From Eledone cirrhosa (Eukaryota): DNA of 64,000 nt. The notes under the pieces are model-generated. The model ran no database searches, was not told where the DNA came from, and worked only from the letters and a program-made list of their open reading frames with translations. This document shows positions 1,236-62,890 of the stretch, piece after piece (positions within the stretch are counted from its first letter, which is position 1; each line of letters starts with the position of its first letter). A program made the translations under genes and the position numbers. Location of the stretch: assembly GCA_964016885.1 (NCBI GenBank), contig OZ024740.1:412114001-412178000 (forward strand), in the 5' to 3' direction.

Positions 1236-1317
1236 GAGAATTACTTACATATCCAATTTTTTGTGTAAGATGGTGTAGGATAGAACAAAGGAGGGACACA
1301 AAAGAAAAGCCTAATCA

Positions 1318-1346
1318 CTGAGGAGGCCATAGAATGTGTGACGAAA
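1318..1346 (+). ncRNA. Hammerhead-like core in a PLE-type terminal repeat (repeat ~1267-1474, abutting (TA)n)
   Basis: CTGAGGA-G-GCCATA-gaatg-TGTGAC-GAAA. Homologous to the cores at 35738 and 51211; downstream flank matches 51240-51395. Confidence 0.55.
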
Positions 1347-1474
1347 GAGCTTTGACAATATATAAACAACCTTCCGTTTATCGAACCAACTAACCAACCG
1401 GGGAAATTTATAATAAATTGAAATGAAAACCAACATGTGCATGTGATTTTATTGGCAGCATGACGCTCCCAAAG

Positions 1475-1538
1475 TATATATATATATATATATATATATA
1501 TATATATATATATATATATATACATATATATATATACA
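1475..1538. repeat. (TA)n microsatellite
   Basis: Direct reading. Confidence 0.95.
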
Positions 1539-1729
1539 TAATTTGTGACTGATCAAACAAGACCTTTTTCCATAAAAACACAATCACGTTTCTTCCTTTT
1601 CTCACCCTCCTCTAATTCTCTAATTTTTTTTCTCATTCTCTTTTCTGATGAAGGACTAGGGTTAAACCAATATATAACTTCATTGAATTGAATTATTTAC
1701 ATTATTGTTTACCGTTTTCTTTTCTTTCA

Positions 1730-1808
1730 TAATTTCGCTGATGAAGTTTCCTGGGAAATGGATTGAAATTTTGAAACTGAAATACATGTTAGACATATTT
1801 GAAATTAC
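1730..1808 (+). ncRNA. Hammerhead-like motif
   Basis: CTGATGA (1738-1744), helix II AGTTTC/GAAACT, GAAA (1779-1782), near-palindromic TACATG, then TT. Helix I forms only distally (TAATTTCG/TGAAATTA). Confidence 0.55.
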
Positions 1809-57709: not shown

Positions 57710-58920
57710 TTTAGCTAATTGGGTTTTAGCTAATTTCTCCCATTTTAGGGTAAACTTTTGATCGCTATCCCTGAGTGTCCAAGCTTTTTCTGCTAAAGTT
57801 GTTACATTTCTTTGGCTCTGGTGTTTTATTGAGTAAGAATGCCTATATAATCGAGATTTAAACGATGTTGCCGTTGATCCCACGTAATACCACTCGTTGC
57901 CTCCGGATTTAATGGTACACTTATAAATAATATTTTTTTCCAGGCAGTTATTGCCGAGGGGGCAGTTGTCAGGATAGGTGCAGTTACAGTTGTGTATGTT
58001 GGGTTTTCTCTGGAGTAGTATTGCGGACGAACTTAGGTGTGGTTTATTTATGTTCTGTAGTGTATTGTCTACTGTTTTTTTGGTGTTCTTTGTACTTAAG
58101 TTCTTAGTGTTTTCGTTTAACCTTCTAGTATTGATCTTTTTTATGTGTTGTTCAAGGTTTAACGCTGTAGAGTATGACAGTCTTATAGTGGTAGGGTTTA
58201 GGATTTTGTGGTATTTGTGTGATGTAGGAAAATGTCTCTTAATTATTTTAAAGAAGAGTACTGGTAAATGTGTACTAATGGAACTATTGTATTCGGGGTT
58301 ATACCATAAGTACTCTTTGCATCGCTTTCTATTAGTTTTGTTAGCTGGTTTACTGGTGTGCATACTATGGTAGTAAGTGTGGTTTGGTGTTGTGTTATTA
58401 TATCTACCTATGTGGGATTTATTTTGGGTGTTTTGATTGTTCCCATCTATATACTCTATTTTTTTGAGGTAGCCTGCTTTACTAAGGGCGTTATCGTAGT
58501 ACTCGGCGTGTTCCTTAAATACTTGTATGCTAGAAGATAGACCCGAGATTCTAAGGGAAATATTTTTAGGGATATATTTAATTATAGAGATGGGGTGGTT
58601 AGACCCAACATTTACGTATTTGAGATTTTCATTCAATTTATGAAACGGTTTAATCAAACCAGAGTTTAAATTGAGTGTGACCTCCAGGAAGTTAACTACT
58701 TTAAGGTTGTATTCATATGTTATAGTTAGTCCTATTTCGAGTAGTAGTTTTCTTATATCTTTGCGTAGTTTTTCTAGTTTTTGGTCATTTAGGTTTTTAA
58801 CTAGGAGGAGAACATCGTCGCGGTATATTCCGCCGTGGAGATTGCTGAATTTTTCCTGGAGTCTAAAGGCGATAAATAACCCCACAATATCAGTTATATC
58901 CGCCGTACTGTTATTCCGCC
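57710..58920 (-). pseudogene. Truncated PLE RT + GIY-YIG reading frame, uninterrupted
   Basis: GGIYRDDVLL, NFLEVTL, SNHP, WYNPEY, CNCxxxxxCPLxxxC, IIYKC..YYVGST..FKSRLYRH. Both ends of ORF 57575-59092 are chimeric. Confidence 0.88.
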
Positions 58921-58932
58921 GTACTGTTATTC

Positions 58933-59556
58933 TGTCATACTCTACAGCGTTAAACCTTGAACAACACATAAAAAAGATCAATACTAGAAGGTTAAACGAA
59001 AACACTAAGAACCTAAGTACAAAGAACACAAAAAAAAACAGTAGACAATACACTACAGAACATAAATAAACCACACCTAAGTTCGTCCGCAATACTACTC
59101 CAGAGAAAACCCAACGTACACAACTGTAACTGCACCTATCCTGACAACTGCCCCCTCGGCAATAACTGCCTGGAAAAAAATATTATTTATAAGTGTACCA
59201 TTAAATCCGGAGGCAACGAGTGGTATTACGTGGGATCAACGGCAACATCGTTTAAATCTCGATTATATAGGCATTCTTACTCAATAAAACACCAGAGCCA
59301 AAGAAATGTAACAACTTTAGCAGAAAACGCTTGGACACTCAGGGATAGCGATCAAAAGTTTACCCTAAAATGGGAGAAATTAGCTAAAACCCAAAGCTTT
59401 TCCAGGAGCCAAAATTTCTGCAAATTGTGTAATCTTGAGATTTATTACATAATCACACACAAGAAGAAATTGCTGAATAACAGAATTGAACGAACATTAT
59501 TCTGCCGTCACAGAACTAAAACCCTTTTTTCCCACTACAAGCCGAATATTACATAA
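58933..59556 (+). pseudogene. Inverted PLE fragment encoding the GIY-YIG C-terminus to its natural stop
   Basis: YYVGSTATSFKSR...CKLCNLE...LLNNRIE...CRHR. Positions 58933-59393 are the reverse complement of 57720-58180. Confidence 0.88.
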
Positions 59557-60410
59557 AAGAGGGACATCCCCCAACTATATAAACCTCAATCTAGTTAGAA
59601 AAATATAAAAACAATCTCTTCTCAACATATATTAATAACCTTAAATTACCACACTAATAATGGAAAGATATGCTGACGAGAATAGGTGCAAATATGCGAT
59701 AATGAATGTGTCTAAAAACGTCCATAAGTATGTATATATATGTGAAAATGTATATAAATAAGTAAATATATATATATGTTTGATGTGTATAGTTAGATGT
59801 AAGTGTATTCATGTATTAAAGTGCTTATATATATATATATATATGTGTGTATATATATATATATATATAGATGTGTATGTATATGTATATGTGTACACAT
59901 AGACTAGAGTATGTATGTATATATGTGTGTGTCTATACGTGTGTATATAAAGATAAGTTGAGTATGAAAATGTATACACATGAACGCGTATGTATGTACA
60001 TGAATACACGTGTGTATATATATATGTATGTATGTGTATATGTATGTAAGTATGAATATGTGAATGTGAGTATATGTATTTTGTAGAGGTGTGCAAATAT
60101 ATTTGTGTATGAATGCGTGGGTGAAAGGATACGTACACTTGAAAGAAAAATTTAAGTCTGAATGTTAATTAAGTGCAAACACAAAACCAACCACGCATAT
60201 CTTTACTATCTCTAATCCTTCTATAAATTTAGAAAAATAACCAATAATATATTCTATAAAAATGTCAAAACAACAGATGGGAATCTAATTACTCACTGCC
60301 ACCAAAAATTCTCACTGCTATCAAAAAACCACTCCCTCAACTATTCTTCTAACAACTTCACCCCTCCCTCCTAATATTCTCTATAAAAACCAAATAGGTC
60401 CTCAGTAATA

Positions 60411-60466
60411 TTATTCTGATGAAATGACAGTAAATAATAACATTGAAATATTGAATGTCTGCATAA
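60411..60466 (+). ncRNA. Hammerhead-like motif in the PLE pseudo-LTR (copies at ~57482-57537(-), 40635(+), ~40250-40305(-))
   Basis: CUGAUGA-AAUG..CAUU-GAAA-UAU-uga-AUG-UC; helix I is weak. A second half-motif, GAAA-CACGUG-UC, lies at 60515-60526. Confidence 0.6.
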
Positions 60467-62890
60467 CTAAAACTTTGTAGATAGCAGCTGTTTTCAGGTT
60501 ATGTAACTGTTATAGAAACACGTGTCAATAAATTCCTTTCAACTAAACTGTATCCATTCAAATCTTTCTATTTTTCTCCGGATTACTTTTGGAACTACAA
60601 CTGGAACCGTAGAGCAAACTCTACGTGAGCCTCAATCTACTGTGTGTAATATTTATATTACAACACAACGGAAAATACTGTATATATATATATAACATTA
60701 AAAGTTAGTCAAAATCTCGATTGAGTGAGTACACACGAGTTGATATCTGTAATTGAGATGAAACATTCGAGAAAGATGACTTTCTGATTCATGTAACAGT
60801 CTGATGAGCTTTTGATTCCAGAGTCGGGCCCGATCATTACAGATAAAAACTTGAACTGATACATCGCAAAATCTGCGTCACGCCAGAATGAATTTTCTGA
60901 AAATTCGACAGCTCGTCCATCATTATATATATATATATATATATATATATATATATATATATATATATGTGTGTGTGTGTGTGTGTGTGTGTGTGTGTGT
61001 GTGTGTGTATGTGTGTGTGTGTGTGTGTGTGTGTCCTGTGTGTGTGTGTGTGTGTGTGTGTGTATAATTGTTGACTTAGTACGCACACGTTTTTCTGCTC
61101 TTAAAGTGTTAAGTTCCTTCCTCTTCCTATCACTACTTTTCTACTTCAACTGTTATATCTCATTTTATCTTTTGAAGGACTAGTTTCCGAAACGTAAAGA
61201 CTCCTTTTCTTATTATATCAAGTGTTACACTAATATATTTCTTTATGGTACTGTCTTATTTGCATTCATGGTCCTTGAGCAAGCGGCTTTTTTTCCAGGA
61301 CGACCATTAAAGAATGCACATGTATACACTCTAATCATATATTTGCCATGTTGCCCAGAAATAGTAAGAAGCAAGCAAAAATGGCTGTTGGAGGCTGTGA
61401 GCATTGACGTCCCTATACATTTGGGGCACTCCTGGAAACATATAGCCGTCTATTCTCTTTTGAATTAAAGGTCTGAATGTCATGTGTGGTGATATCCTTA
61501 ATGATTTTATATGTATCTCCACACATTGTTACCTTGTTCAGTATTTGTGTCAGTTTAGATATGATGTTCCGCAATCTCCAACAGTCTGTTTGTGTTTCCC
61601 ACTTAGTTCAATGAGCGACATATCTTTTCGTTTATGAATCTTCACTGTCAGAAAATTCGGTGAGTGTGTGGTTAGTTTTAGTTGAATTTGTGTGTCTGCT
61701 TGATATTTTGTTGTAAAAGTCTGGATTTTGTTATAGAGATTTGTGGGTTGGTTGTGTTAATGTTGATATCGTTGGTGATAGTTACGGTGTGGATGTTTGA
61801 GTTGATGGTGTTTCAGGTGTGTCCGTATTAGATTTGTCGGTGTGTTTTCCGAGTTATATAGAGTGTGGTTTGTGGTGGGACAAATATTTTGGTTTGGAGA
61901 ATTCCTCATCTTCCCTGCGAGAGGAGGCAGCTGTTTCTGATGAATCAGATTCCGATGGTAATGGGTGGGCGATTGTGCGAGTGACTGTCTATGTGTTTGC
62001 AAGACGCGGAGATAGGAAGAGCTATATTGGAAGATGCCCATTTTGGATTTGTTGTATTATTTTCTGTTATTTTTCTTCTTCATGGTGCTAGTGGTGGCAG
62101 AGTTGCCGCTACCACTGCTGTTAATGTTACTGATTGTTATTGCTGAGATTAGTGTGTTGCTGTTTTCGTTGTTGTACATCGATAGTGATGTTGCATTTGT
62201 TGTCGTTGGGGCTATTGTTTTGCCGACAAATCCACTTTACAAATAAAACAAATATATGTTCTGTACAGTCAACTACTATCAATCCTGAACGCATCGTGTT
62301 ACTCTTATTTATATCCTTATAGAATACGCTTTTTAGATAACATCTAGATGACCAATGCGATTTGATCATGTTGCCTTTGAAATATTCGATAAATGTAGTA
62401 CGTACCTGGCAGAGAGATGGAAATGCCTGTTCATTTTTTTTAGGATTTTACACCTTCTCCATTATCTGCTATCCCACTTTAATGGATGAACTTTCGGAAG
62501 TCTCCAATTGTATTGGAGAATTTCAGTATTAATTTGTTGTACCTTTATTGCTTGGCTCAGGACTAAAGATCTGTTAAGGTGAAAACCTGTGGAAACACAC
62601 GCCTAGCATTGAGCAAACACCCTGATCACCGTTAAGGAACATTTGATAATAATATTAATTTCATTCATATGTATAAAAGAGAGTATACGTTGCTACAGGT
62701 GTTACAAATGCGAGCTGTTACCTGAAAAGAATAACAAGGATACCAGTAATAAACTATACACACATACATATATATACATACACACATACATATATGTATA
62801 CATGTATGGACACATACATATATACTTACAAACATACATAAATATATAAATATTTGTATGAAGGAGTGTATGTTTTGTGTATGCATATAT

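What the first reader, a model, noticed from the sequence alone, without database searches (positions are those of the whole stretch)
1267..61200. Candidate system: many families of (TA)n-targeting, hammerhead-bearing fold-back elements alongside a young Penelope-like partner
Seen: about 15 CUGANGA/helix II/GAAA motifs in 64 kb (1318, 1738, 17827, 23402/23599, 24943/26582, 26987, 35738, 38376, 40635, 40990, 48146, 51211, 60411, plus weaker ones). They belong to several unrelated sequence families. Most are non-coding, sit next to (TA)n, and often lie in long palindromes. One palindrome (40150-40897) is demonstrably the terminal repeat of the RT+GIY-YIG element at 57-60.8 kb. Established: PLE pseudo-LTRs carry minimal type I hammerheads and PLEs form inverted insertions. 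Inference: these are short non-autonomous, retrozyme-like PLE derivatives that are mobilised in trans and fixed as hairpins. The density, diversity and fold-back form look unusual.
Basis: partly seen in the sequence, partly recalled or inferred. Interest (0 to 1): 0.88.

Follow-up and report, generated by a model that had tools for sequence, protein, structure and literature searches.

The report
Penelope retrotransposon ends plus hitchhiking retrozymes
The hammerhead self-cutting RNA motifs here are real, and most are the broken ends of seven or eight protein-coding Penelope-type jumping genes (a known pattern), but two belong to short non-coding repeats that are likely copied by the same enzymes, in a genome that likely holds about 300,000 such motifs.

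Summary
The motifs are real: 9 structured type I hammerheads in the window against 0.07 in shuffles. The window is ordinary for this genome (42 in 400 kb elsewhere; P=0.31), which extrapolates to about 300,000 motifs (165,000-490,000). Of nine families behind the listed motifs, seven are shown and one is likely to be the 3' end of a coding RT+GIY-YIG Penelope-like element (Hydra- and Neptune-type), 5'-truncated with an inverted second arm in (TA)n. That pattern is published (Cervera 2014, Craig 2021). One listed family (26.7-27.2 kb, 442-bp unit) and one unlisted (51.5-51.8 kb) are non-coding head-to-tail retrozyme-type units. They carry the same scars: two fixed 3' ends, a 5' inversion and (TA)n flanks, so Penelope machinery likely moves them. 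The 57-60.8 kb element lacks residues 1-322 and cannot be the partner; intact near-identical copies lie elsewhere. In one family the fold-back centre is fixed and often carries an extra G, likely a capped transcription start. Cleavage, expression and the partner of the retrozymes are untested. The scan noted a similar non-coding Penelope-style repeat in another genome (e1-7810660). Verdict: new members of known kinds.

The parts
1267..1478 (+). F4 remnant: decayed 3' end of a Neptune-type coding PLE, hammerhead core at 1318
   Evidence: 81-83% to the F4 reference; RT and EN ORF pieces upstream in L122 and L124
1620..1723 (+). F10 remnant: old minimal-hammerhead family (core about 1645, internally deleted); coding link unresolved
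1725..1810 (+). Orphan hammerhead fold, core 1738 (helix I 8 bp, helix II 6 bp); no family found
   Evidence: no homologue
17720..17870 (-). F5b: intact U3-A8 hammerhead (core 17860), F5-related 3' end; F5-type ORF 1.4 kb upstream in one locus
23371..23795 (+). F2 fold-back: inverted arm 23371-23534, direct arm from 23537 with an 89-nt tail; centre at the family's fixed 5' point; 3' end of an 800-aa Hydra-type PLE
24790..26690 (.). F3 insertion: two inverted pLTR arms (cores 24998 -, 26590 +) with 3' UTR between; 3' end of a Hydra-type PLE
   Evidence: (L128 RT+EN, E 1e-127)
26714..27215 (+). F7 non-coding retrozyme-type element: inverted arm 26714-26838, direct arm 26842-27205, decayed core at 26987
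33963..34095 (-). F7 fragment (tail-less 3' end)
35395..36042 (+). F6: 3' end of a young Neptune-type coding PLE, core 35738 (short helix I), tail into (TA)50
   Evidence: (ORF in 6 of 6 extended loci)
38264..38651 (.). F5 fold-back; family consensus is a U3-A8 core with GCAA for GAAA; 3' end of a coding PLE
   Evidence: (L186 ORF, L187 collinear)
40152..40897 (+). F1 perfect fold-back (316 of 316 bases identical between arms) plus 114-nt tail; cores 40300 -, 40635 +; identical to the pLTR of intact 773-aa Hydra-type PLEs
40991..41182 (+). F16: 3' end of a Hydra-type coding PLE, hammerhead with helix II of about 105 nt
   Evidence: ORF ends at the same distance upstream in 11 of 25 loci
48133..48197 (-). 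F9 fragment, core 48191; likely the 3' end of a Hydra-type PLE with a long microsatellite 3' UTR
51068..51461 (+). F4 fold-back with internal deletion, core 51211, tail
51485..51770 (-). F14: second non-coding tandem family (about 315-bp unit, related to F13); first half of the core deleted in this copy
57249..60782 (.). F1 insertion: inverted pLTR 57378-57710, inverted ORF piece (residues 323-720), direct ORF piece (564-773, frameshifted), 3' UTR, pLTR and tail; 94 bp of the right flank copied inverted at the left end
60798..60920 (+). F8 remnant: old short hammerhead family with long helix II; coding link unresolved
61138..61266 (+). F10 remnant

Best explanation
Most motifs sit in the 3' ends of coding Penelope-like retrotransposons inserted as 5'-truncated, often inverted copies next to (TA)n, and two sit in non-coding head-to-tail units that likely use the same enzymes in trans. 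Mechanism: the GIY-YIG domain would nick both strands of a (TA)n tract, and the RT would start at two fixed internal sites of the RNA (shown in vitro for a lizard PLE, PMC11167929; inferred here from two fixed 3' ends in all 10 families checked). Both cDNAs would run towards the RNA 5' end, usually stop early, and be joined by short homology, giving an inverted pair with the tail on one arm only (structure shown; steps inferred). When both reach a capped 5' end close by, a short perfect fold-back results (inferred for F2 from the fixed centre and extra G). The hammerheads are under selection as ribozymes (paired 3-8 cores only). They would cut tandem transcripts as dimers and, in F7, F13 and F14, release monomers that may circularise (untested), but they are likely not needed for insertion.
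For: Intact ORFs: F1 in 3 of 4 extended loci and F2. 30 of 30 top F1 copies extend upstream by variable lengths and 7 run on into the ORF. ORFs upstream of F3 (4 of 4), F4, F5, F6 (6 of 6) and F16 (11 of 25). Hydra motifs RW(K/T), DKT, CxCX5C in F1/F2; CX2-5CxxC linker in F5/F6. Two 3' end classes in all 10 families, including F7 and F13/14. F7: 20 tandem, 6 inverted, 4 other, 0 ORF-linked of 30; longest open frame 98 codons. L366: 13 units of 311 bp plus an inverted arm with a tail of about 36 nt, (TA)n on both sides. In 400 kb: C3-G8 22, U3-A8 3, C3-A8 0, U3-G8 0. F2: of 25 arms ending at one base, 12 carry G where the genome has C.
Against: No empty target sites were examined, so (TA)n as target rather than added sequence is inferred. 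F9's ORF link rests on 2 of 8 regions, F5b's on one locus; F8, F10 and 1738 are unresolved. F7 shows no similarity to any coding family's 3' end, so its partner is not identified. Most F7 insertions are only 1.2-1.4 units, and the one full dimer examined (L207) has a mutated core. The U3-A8 count (3 against 0-1 in shuffles) is small. Rfam gives no gathering-level hit and single-strand folds of the hammerheads are mostly unremarkable. Searches scored only the best 40 candidates per family, so they favour copies like the window's.
Confidence: 0.8

Rival explanations
1. One reading: most motifs belong to independently amplified short non-autonomous families fixed as hairpins.
For: F7 and F14 are non-coding tandem families. 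F2 has a class of fixed-length short copies: 8 of 23 incidental arms start within -83 to -60 of the core. F8 copies are mostly under 50 nt upstream of the core.
Against: Seven families, likely eight, run into ORFs with variable 5' ends. The 40.15 kb palindrome is identical to ORF-bearing copies. F2 short copies share their alleles with long copies, and internal priming at the pLTR-ORF junction of a coding mRNA can give the same short product.
Confidence: 0.12
2. F7, F13 and F14 are satellites spread by DNA-level recombination or by another retrotransposon, and only resemble PLE insertions.
For: Tandem arrays up to 13 near-identical units. No sequence link to a coding PLE end was found. RTE and CR1-type RT ORFs are common in the fetched loci.
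Against: Over a thousand dispersed candidates for F7 (1410 and 2691). 5' truncation, an inverted arm lacking a tail of about 35 nt, and (TA)n at both ends, as in the coding PLEs. PMC11167929 calls the tail signature unique to PLEs.
Confidence: 0.12
3. The palindromes are assembly or library artefacts and the motifs are chance matches in AT-rich DNA.
For: The window is 68% AT with 182 (TA)6 runs. One palindrome has perfectly identical arms. Four bare matches (280, 9513, 20049, 54225) have no homologues.
Against: Structured motifs 9 against 0.07 and 42 against 0-2 in shuffles. Arms are asymmetric (tail on one only), diverged in older copies (F5: 15 mismatches), and recur at many loci with different flanks.
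Confidence: 0.03

Closest known systems
Minimal type I hammerheads in PLE pseudo-LTRs (Cervera & de la Pena 2014, PMC4209133; parts 1-2 of 4 read)
   Same: Many consensus families per genome, mostly single motifs from truncated PLEs; pairs on opposite strands 100-700 bp apart; palindromic helix III; extra base after A9; U3-A8 variant.
   Different: Counts there are in the thousands (about 2,000 + 1,300 in Schistosoma, 9,000 in Xenopus); here about 300,000 by extrapolation with my own looser descriptor. Several families here have helix II of 50-105 nt.
Hydra clade of C-terminal EN+ PLEs (Craig et al. 2021, PMC8557442; passages, section 11 and a few supplement rows read)
   Same: RW(K/T), DKT and CxCX5C motifs, no CCHH, hammerhead in the pLTR, (TA)n insertion, partial tandems and inverted 5'-truncated copies.
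   Different: F1 is 3.6 kb (Hydra usually under 3 kb) with a microsatellite-rich 3' UTR; tails are 89-114 nt rather than 30-40; F1 is extremely young (40 of 40 scored copies identical over 421 nt).
Neptune/Nematis PLEs (same paper)
   Same: F4, F5 and F6 have a C-terminal GIY-YIG with the CX2-5CxxC linker; F6 has both cysteines and both histidines of CCHH.
   Different: Neptune and Nematis were not told apart (no labelled references). F5 amplified with a GCAA core.
Non-LTR retrozymes of animals (Cervera & de la Pena 2020, PMC7229834, passages and Discussion; Li et al. 2026, 10.64898/2026.07.22.740005, parts 1 and 3 of 5 and passages)
   Same: Non-coding head-to-tail units of 311-442 bp, one type I hammerhead each, GC 35-38%, strongly self-paired as circles; PLEs proposed as the mobiliser.
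   Different: Those papers argue the PLE link from co-occurrence and pLTR similarity; 'tail' does not occur in the Li main text and 'inverted' not in the 2020 main text. Here the insertions show the PLE tail, 5' inversion and (TA)n flanks. F7 is mostly 1.2-1.4 units, not long arrays. Expression is untested here.
Poseidon PLE of Anolis in vitro (Frangieh et al. 2024, PMC11167929; parts 1-2 of 4 read)
   Same: Two internal RT start sites defining the tail, priming on both strands, AT-rich nicks, hammerhead dispensable for insertion.
   Different: Different clade; start sites there lie inside the ORF, here the tail ends lie about 50-85 nt upstream of the first Met in F1 and F2.

Membership tests
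Type I hammerhead ribozyme (PLE minimal type) | CUGANGA and GAAA boxes, helices I-II, U16.1-H17, above chance | tested here: met
   9 against 0.07 in the window; 42 against 0-2 in 400 kb
Type I hammerhead ribozyme (PLE minimal type) | 3-8 core pair covaries; palindromic helix III | tested here: met
   C3-G8 22, U3-A8 3, mismatched cores 0 and 0; 24 of 42 loops exactly palindromic; both core types within F13/F14
Type I hammerhead ribozyme (PLE minimal type) | Match to an Rfam hammerhead model | tested here: not met
   0 gathering-level hits in the window and 7 loci; none among the 150 of 266 rows shown
Type I hammerhead ribozyme (PLE minimal type) | Self-cleavage | not testable with these tools
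   needs an in vitro assay
EN+ Penelope-like element (F1-F6, F16, F9) | Single ORF with RT and C-terminal GIY-YIG-type endonuclease upstream of the hammerhead repeat | tested here: met
   F9 and F5b weaker. Pfam hit only for F6 (RVT_1, E 8e-5, below cut-off); EN identified by motif
EN+ Penelope-like element (F1-F6, F16, F9) | Partial tandems, 5' truncation, inverted 5' copy, tail on one end | tested here: met
Hydra clade (F1, F2) | RWK, DKT, CxCX5C linker, no CCHH | tested here: met
   F1 RVRWK, ADKT, CNCTYPDNC; F2 RLRWT (variant), SDKT, CNCRIKNKC
Hydra clade (F1, F2) | Element generally under 3 kb | tested here: not met
   F1 unit 3.6 kb; described as a tendency, not a rule
Hydra clade (F1, F2) | Phylogenetic placement with reference Hydra proteins | not tested
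   no labelled reference proteins among the hits
Neptune/Nematis clades (F4-F6) | CX2-5CxxC linker and CCHH | tested here: inconclusive
   linker met in F5 and F6, CCHH complete in F6, one cysteine missing in the F5 copy; the two clades not separated
Non-LTR retrozyme (F7, F13, F14) | Non-coding head-to-tail unit with one type I hammerhead, GC under 45% | tested here: met
Non-LTR retrozyme (F7, F13, F14) | [quoted passage not shown] 'active') | tested here: inconclusive
   met for F13 (L366, 13 units) and F14 (L322, U3-A8 dimer); not seen for F7, whose L207 dimer has a mutated core
Non-LTR retrozyme (F7, F13, F14) | Highly self-paired monomer | tested here: met
   circular MFE z = -8.5, -4.0, -5.1; 0 of 40 shuffles as good in each case
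Non-LTR retrozyme (F7, F13, F14) | Expressed as linear and circular RNA | not testable with these tools

The most novel reading that the evidence does not exclude
This octopus-like genome holds the largest hammerhead load of any genome I found reported (about 300,000 structured motifs in 25 or more families, against 126,247 in axolotl), and its retrozymes carry the PLE-specific two-start tail, 5' inversion and (TA)n flanks. That is direct genomic evidence that Penelope RT-endonucleases mobilise retrozymes, with a 13-unit array laid down in one event, as rolling-circle reverse transcription of a circular RNA predicts.
Probability: 0.55. Interest if true: 0.55.

Novelty: new member of a known kind. 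Interest (0 to 1): 0.35.

Why it matters
The bulk of the finding is known biology. Three points add value. First, which retrotransposon moves animal retrozymes is open in print; insertions with the PLE tail signature name the two RT start sites on a 311-nt RNA, which makes a trans-mobilisation assay straightforward. Second, a very young intact Hydra-type element (F1) gives a candidate active enzyme from a clade not yet studied biochemically in the papers read. Third, about 100 structured hammerheads per Mb means many introns and UTRs in this genome would contain potential self-cleaving sites.

Tried and rejected
Rfam: the E-value scan was swamped by miRNA matches to TA hairpins and the gathering scan was empty. 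The repeat finder was swamped by microsatellites. My first descriptor (helix II under 45 nt) found only F2 and made F1 look like a 2-bp-helix variant; widening it corrected this. The F2 protein was translated from the wrong strand (fixed), so those panels had one protein fewer, and the F3 hit is the window's own F7 arm. The F7 unit was first taken as 467 bp; core-to-core spacing is 442. Library coverage of the window (30 fragments against 9.6 per 64 kb) was rejected as a density test because the library was built from the window. An A/G difference between F2 arms looked like a master palindrome but unselected pairs are G/G; read as query bias at a mutable site. Apparent 5' pile-ups in F3, F4 and F6 are alignment breaks with sister families; those in F9 and F16 were not resolved. 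No pile-up of 5' ends at a cleavage site was seen. No RNA holder listed for F1. Lunse et al. 2017 is not held and may include cephalopod counts; the supplement of the Li preprint was not seen; 2 of 4 'octopus' rows in the Craig supplement were not seen. No structure prediction or tree was run.

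
Full report
Setting. The window is G000:C1:412114001-412178000 of a 3.0-Gb genome, 68% AT. The closest named homologue of one element's protein is from Octopus vulgaris (68% identity, next hit 51%), and a common SINE resembles octopus SINEs (recalled, no call), so an octopod is likely but not shown.

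Observation. Bare CTGANGA..GAAA occurs 17 times against 4.2+-2.1 in 40 shuffles. With a descriptor that allows long helix II, 9 structured type I hammerheads are found against 0.07, plus one U3-A8 form at 17860. For a control I fetched 40 stretches of 10 kb at round positions on 18 large contigs. They hold 42 structured motifs against 0-2 in 10 shuffles, or 36 against 0.1 with a narrower descriptor. The window is therefore typical (expected 6.7, P=0.31). Extrapolation gives 315,000 motifs (bootstrap 165,000-487,000), or 270,000 (135,000-419,000) with the narrower descriptor. The sample is small, clustered, and omits small contigs. Only paired cores occur in it: C3-G8 22, U3-A8 3, C3-A8 0, U3-G8 0. 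Across all fetched loci the motifs fall into 25 clusters seen in two or more loci.

Family tracing. Each listed motif was used to fetch relatives; each search scored only its best 40 candidates. F1 (40.15-40.9 and 57.2-60.8 kb): 452 candidates, 40 of 40 scored identical over 421 nt; a 3.6-kb unit with an intact 773-aa ORF in 3 of 4 extended loci; all 30 fetched copies extend upstream of the window's palindrome centre by variable lengths and 7 continue into the ORF. The window's long element encodes only residues 323-773, split and inverted. F2 (23.4-23.8 kb) is the end of an intact 800-aa ORF, 41% identical to F1. F3 (24.9/26.6 kb) has RT-EN sequence in 4 of 4 extended loci. F4 (1318, 51211) and F6 (35738) lead to a different RT with a CX2-5CxxC linker (L122, L124; 6 of 6 extended F6 loci). 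F5 (38376) leads to a third type (L186, collinear in L187); its consensus has GCAA for GAAA in more than 30 copies, so it spread with a likely damaged ribozyme. 17827 is an F5 relative with an intact U3-A8 motif and an ORF upstream in one locus. F16 (40990) has an ORF ending at the same distance upstream in 11 of 25 loci. F9 (48146) showed no matching ORF within 1.5 kb in 25 loci, but the same ORF lies 1.3-1.6 kb upstream in 2 of 8 extended regions. F1 and F2 carry the Hydra-clade motifs.

The exception. F7 (26987) is a 442-bp unit with 2691 candidates. In 30 best full-unit loci the unit is preceded directly by the 3' part of another unit in 20, by an inverted arm in 6, by other sequence in 4, and never by a PLE ORF; no frame exceeds 98 codons. 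A second non-coding family, F14, sits at 51485-51770 and is related to F13, which I met in the control sample: L366 has 13 units of 311 bp, 10 of 11 inner units identical, with an inverted arm and (TA)n on both sides. F13/F14 include both C3-G8 and U3-A8 cores. All three units are 35-38% GC and fold far better as circles than shuffles. None resembles the 3' end of a coding family except through each other (F7 and F13 tested). F8 (60798), F10 (about 1645 and 61174) and 1738 remain unresolved.

Shared scars. In all 10 families checked, some arms stop at a fixed inner point and run into (TA)n while others continue into a tail (identical copies were collapsed, so the counts are not proportions). 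Tails are 114 nt in F1, 89 in F2, and about 35 in F7 and F13. (TA)4 follows 165 of 225 incidental 3' ends against a 6.4% background. PMC11167929 shows in vitro that a PLE primes both strands at AT-rich nicks from two internal RNA sites whose spacing is the tail, and that the hammerhead is not needed. This explains the fold-backs as two cDNAs joined at their far ends. In F2, 24 of 30 fetched copies start within -14 to +20 of one point; the query began there, but 8 of 23 incidental arms also do. Of 25 arms ending at that base, 12 carry G where full-length copies have C, 10 carry C supplied by the other arm and 3 carry T. I read this as run-off at a capped transcription start (inference).

Comparison with print. 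PMC4209133 already reports hammerheads in PLE repeats, many families per genome, mostly truncated copies, opposite-strand pairs and the U3-A8 form. PMC8557442 reports inverted 5' copies, tails, and the (TA)n-inserting, hammerhead-bearing Hydra clade. PMC7229834 and the 2026 Li preprint define animal retrozymes and propose PLEs as their mobilisers; the largest count I saw is 126,247 in axolotl. Searches for hammerheads with octopus or cephalopod and for retrozymes with PLE tails and inversions returned nothing that describes these points; the Octopus vulgaris repeat paper lists 31 recently active Penelope-like families and does not contain the word ribozyme (passages). The library lacks most subscription papers and Lunse et al. 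2017 (recalled only).

Verdict. Novelty: new members of known kinds. Interest 0.35. The boldest reading left standing is a record hammerhead load plus direct scar evidence that PLE enzymes move retrozymes (probability 0.55, interest 0.55).

Noticed in passing
window 57249-57342 and 60689-60782: 94 bp of unique flank from the right side of the F1 insertion is copied, inverted, at its left end between two (TA)n runs (93 of 94 identical; only these two genome matches). It suggests synthesis or repair that copies target DNA across the insertion.
   Followed up: partly
L366:930-5280 (G000:C3, about 280.008-280.013 Mb) and L082:1950-3292: Young F13 retrozyme arrays: 13 near-identical 311-bp units plus an inverted arm in L366; at least four units in L082.
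   Followed up: yes
   Followed up: partly
window 34705-34873, 43912-44027, 48646-48762: Three copies of a very common short (TA)n-flanked, often folded-back element (61-67 of the fetched loci) that looks like the 3' half of a further hammerhead family; origin not traced.
   Followed up: partly
window 11827-12246 and 27676-28455: Further palindromes without a visible hammerhead; 11827-12246 has 96% identical inverted copies in L259.
   Followed up: no
window 14590-16414: Frameshifted non-LTR RT fragment (CR1-like by recalled resemblance) between two very long TA-rich tracts; near-identical sequence also in L070.
   Followed up: no
F2 copies, e.g. window 23553 and L035-L064: One site 17 nt after the fixed 5' point is G in most arms but A in the arms selected by my query, with the partner arm keeping G; looks like a strongly mutable position.
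   Followed up: partly
window 30947-31161, 42775-42968, 53671-53855, 54696-55144: Abundant SINE-like repeat (24 of 40 control stretches), with a tandem pair at 54.7-55.1 kb.
   Followed up: no
F1 3' UTR, window 59730-60150; F9 3' UTR in L358 and L361: Hydra-type elements carry TA/TG microsatellite tracts inside their own 3' UTR, so they spread the repeats they insert beside.
   Followed up: no
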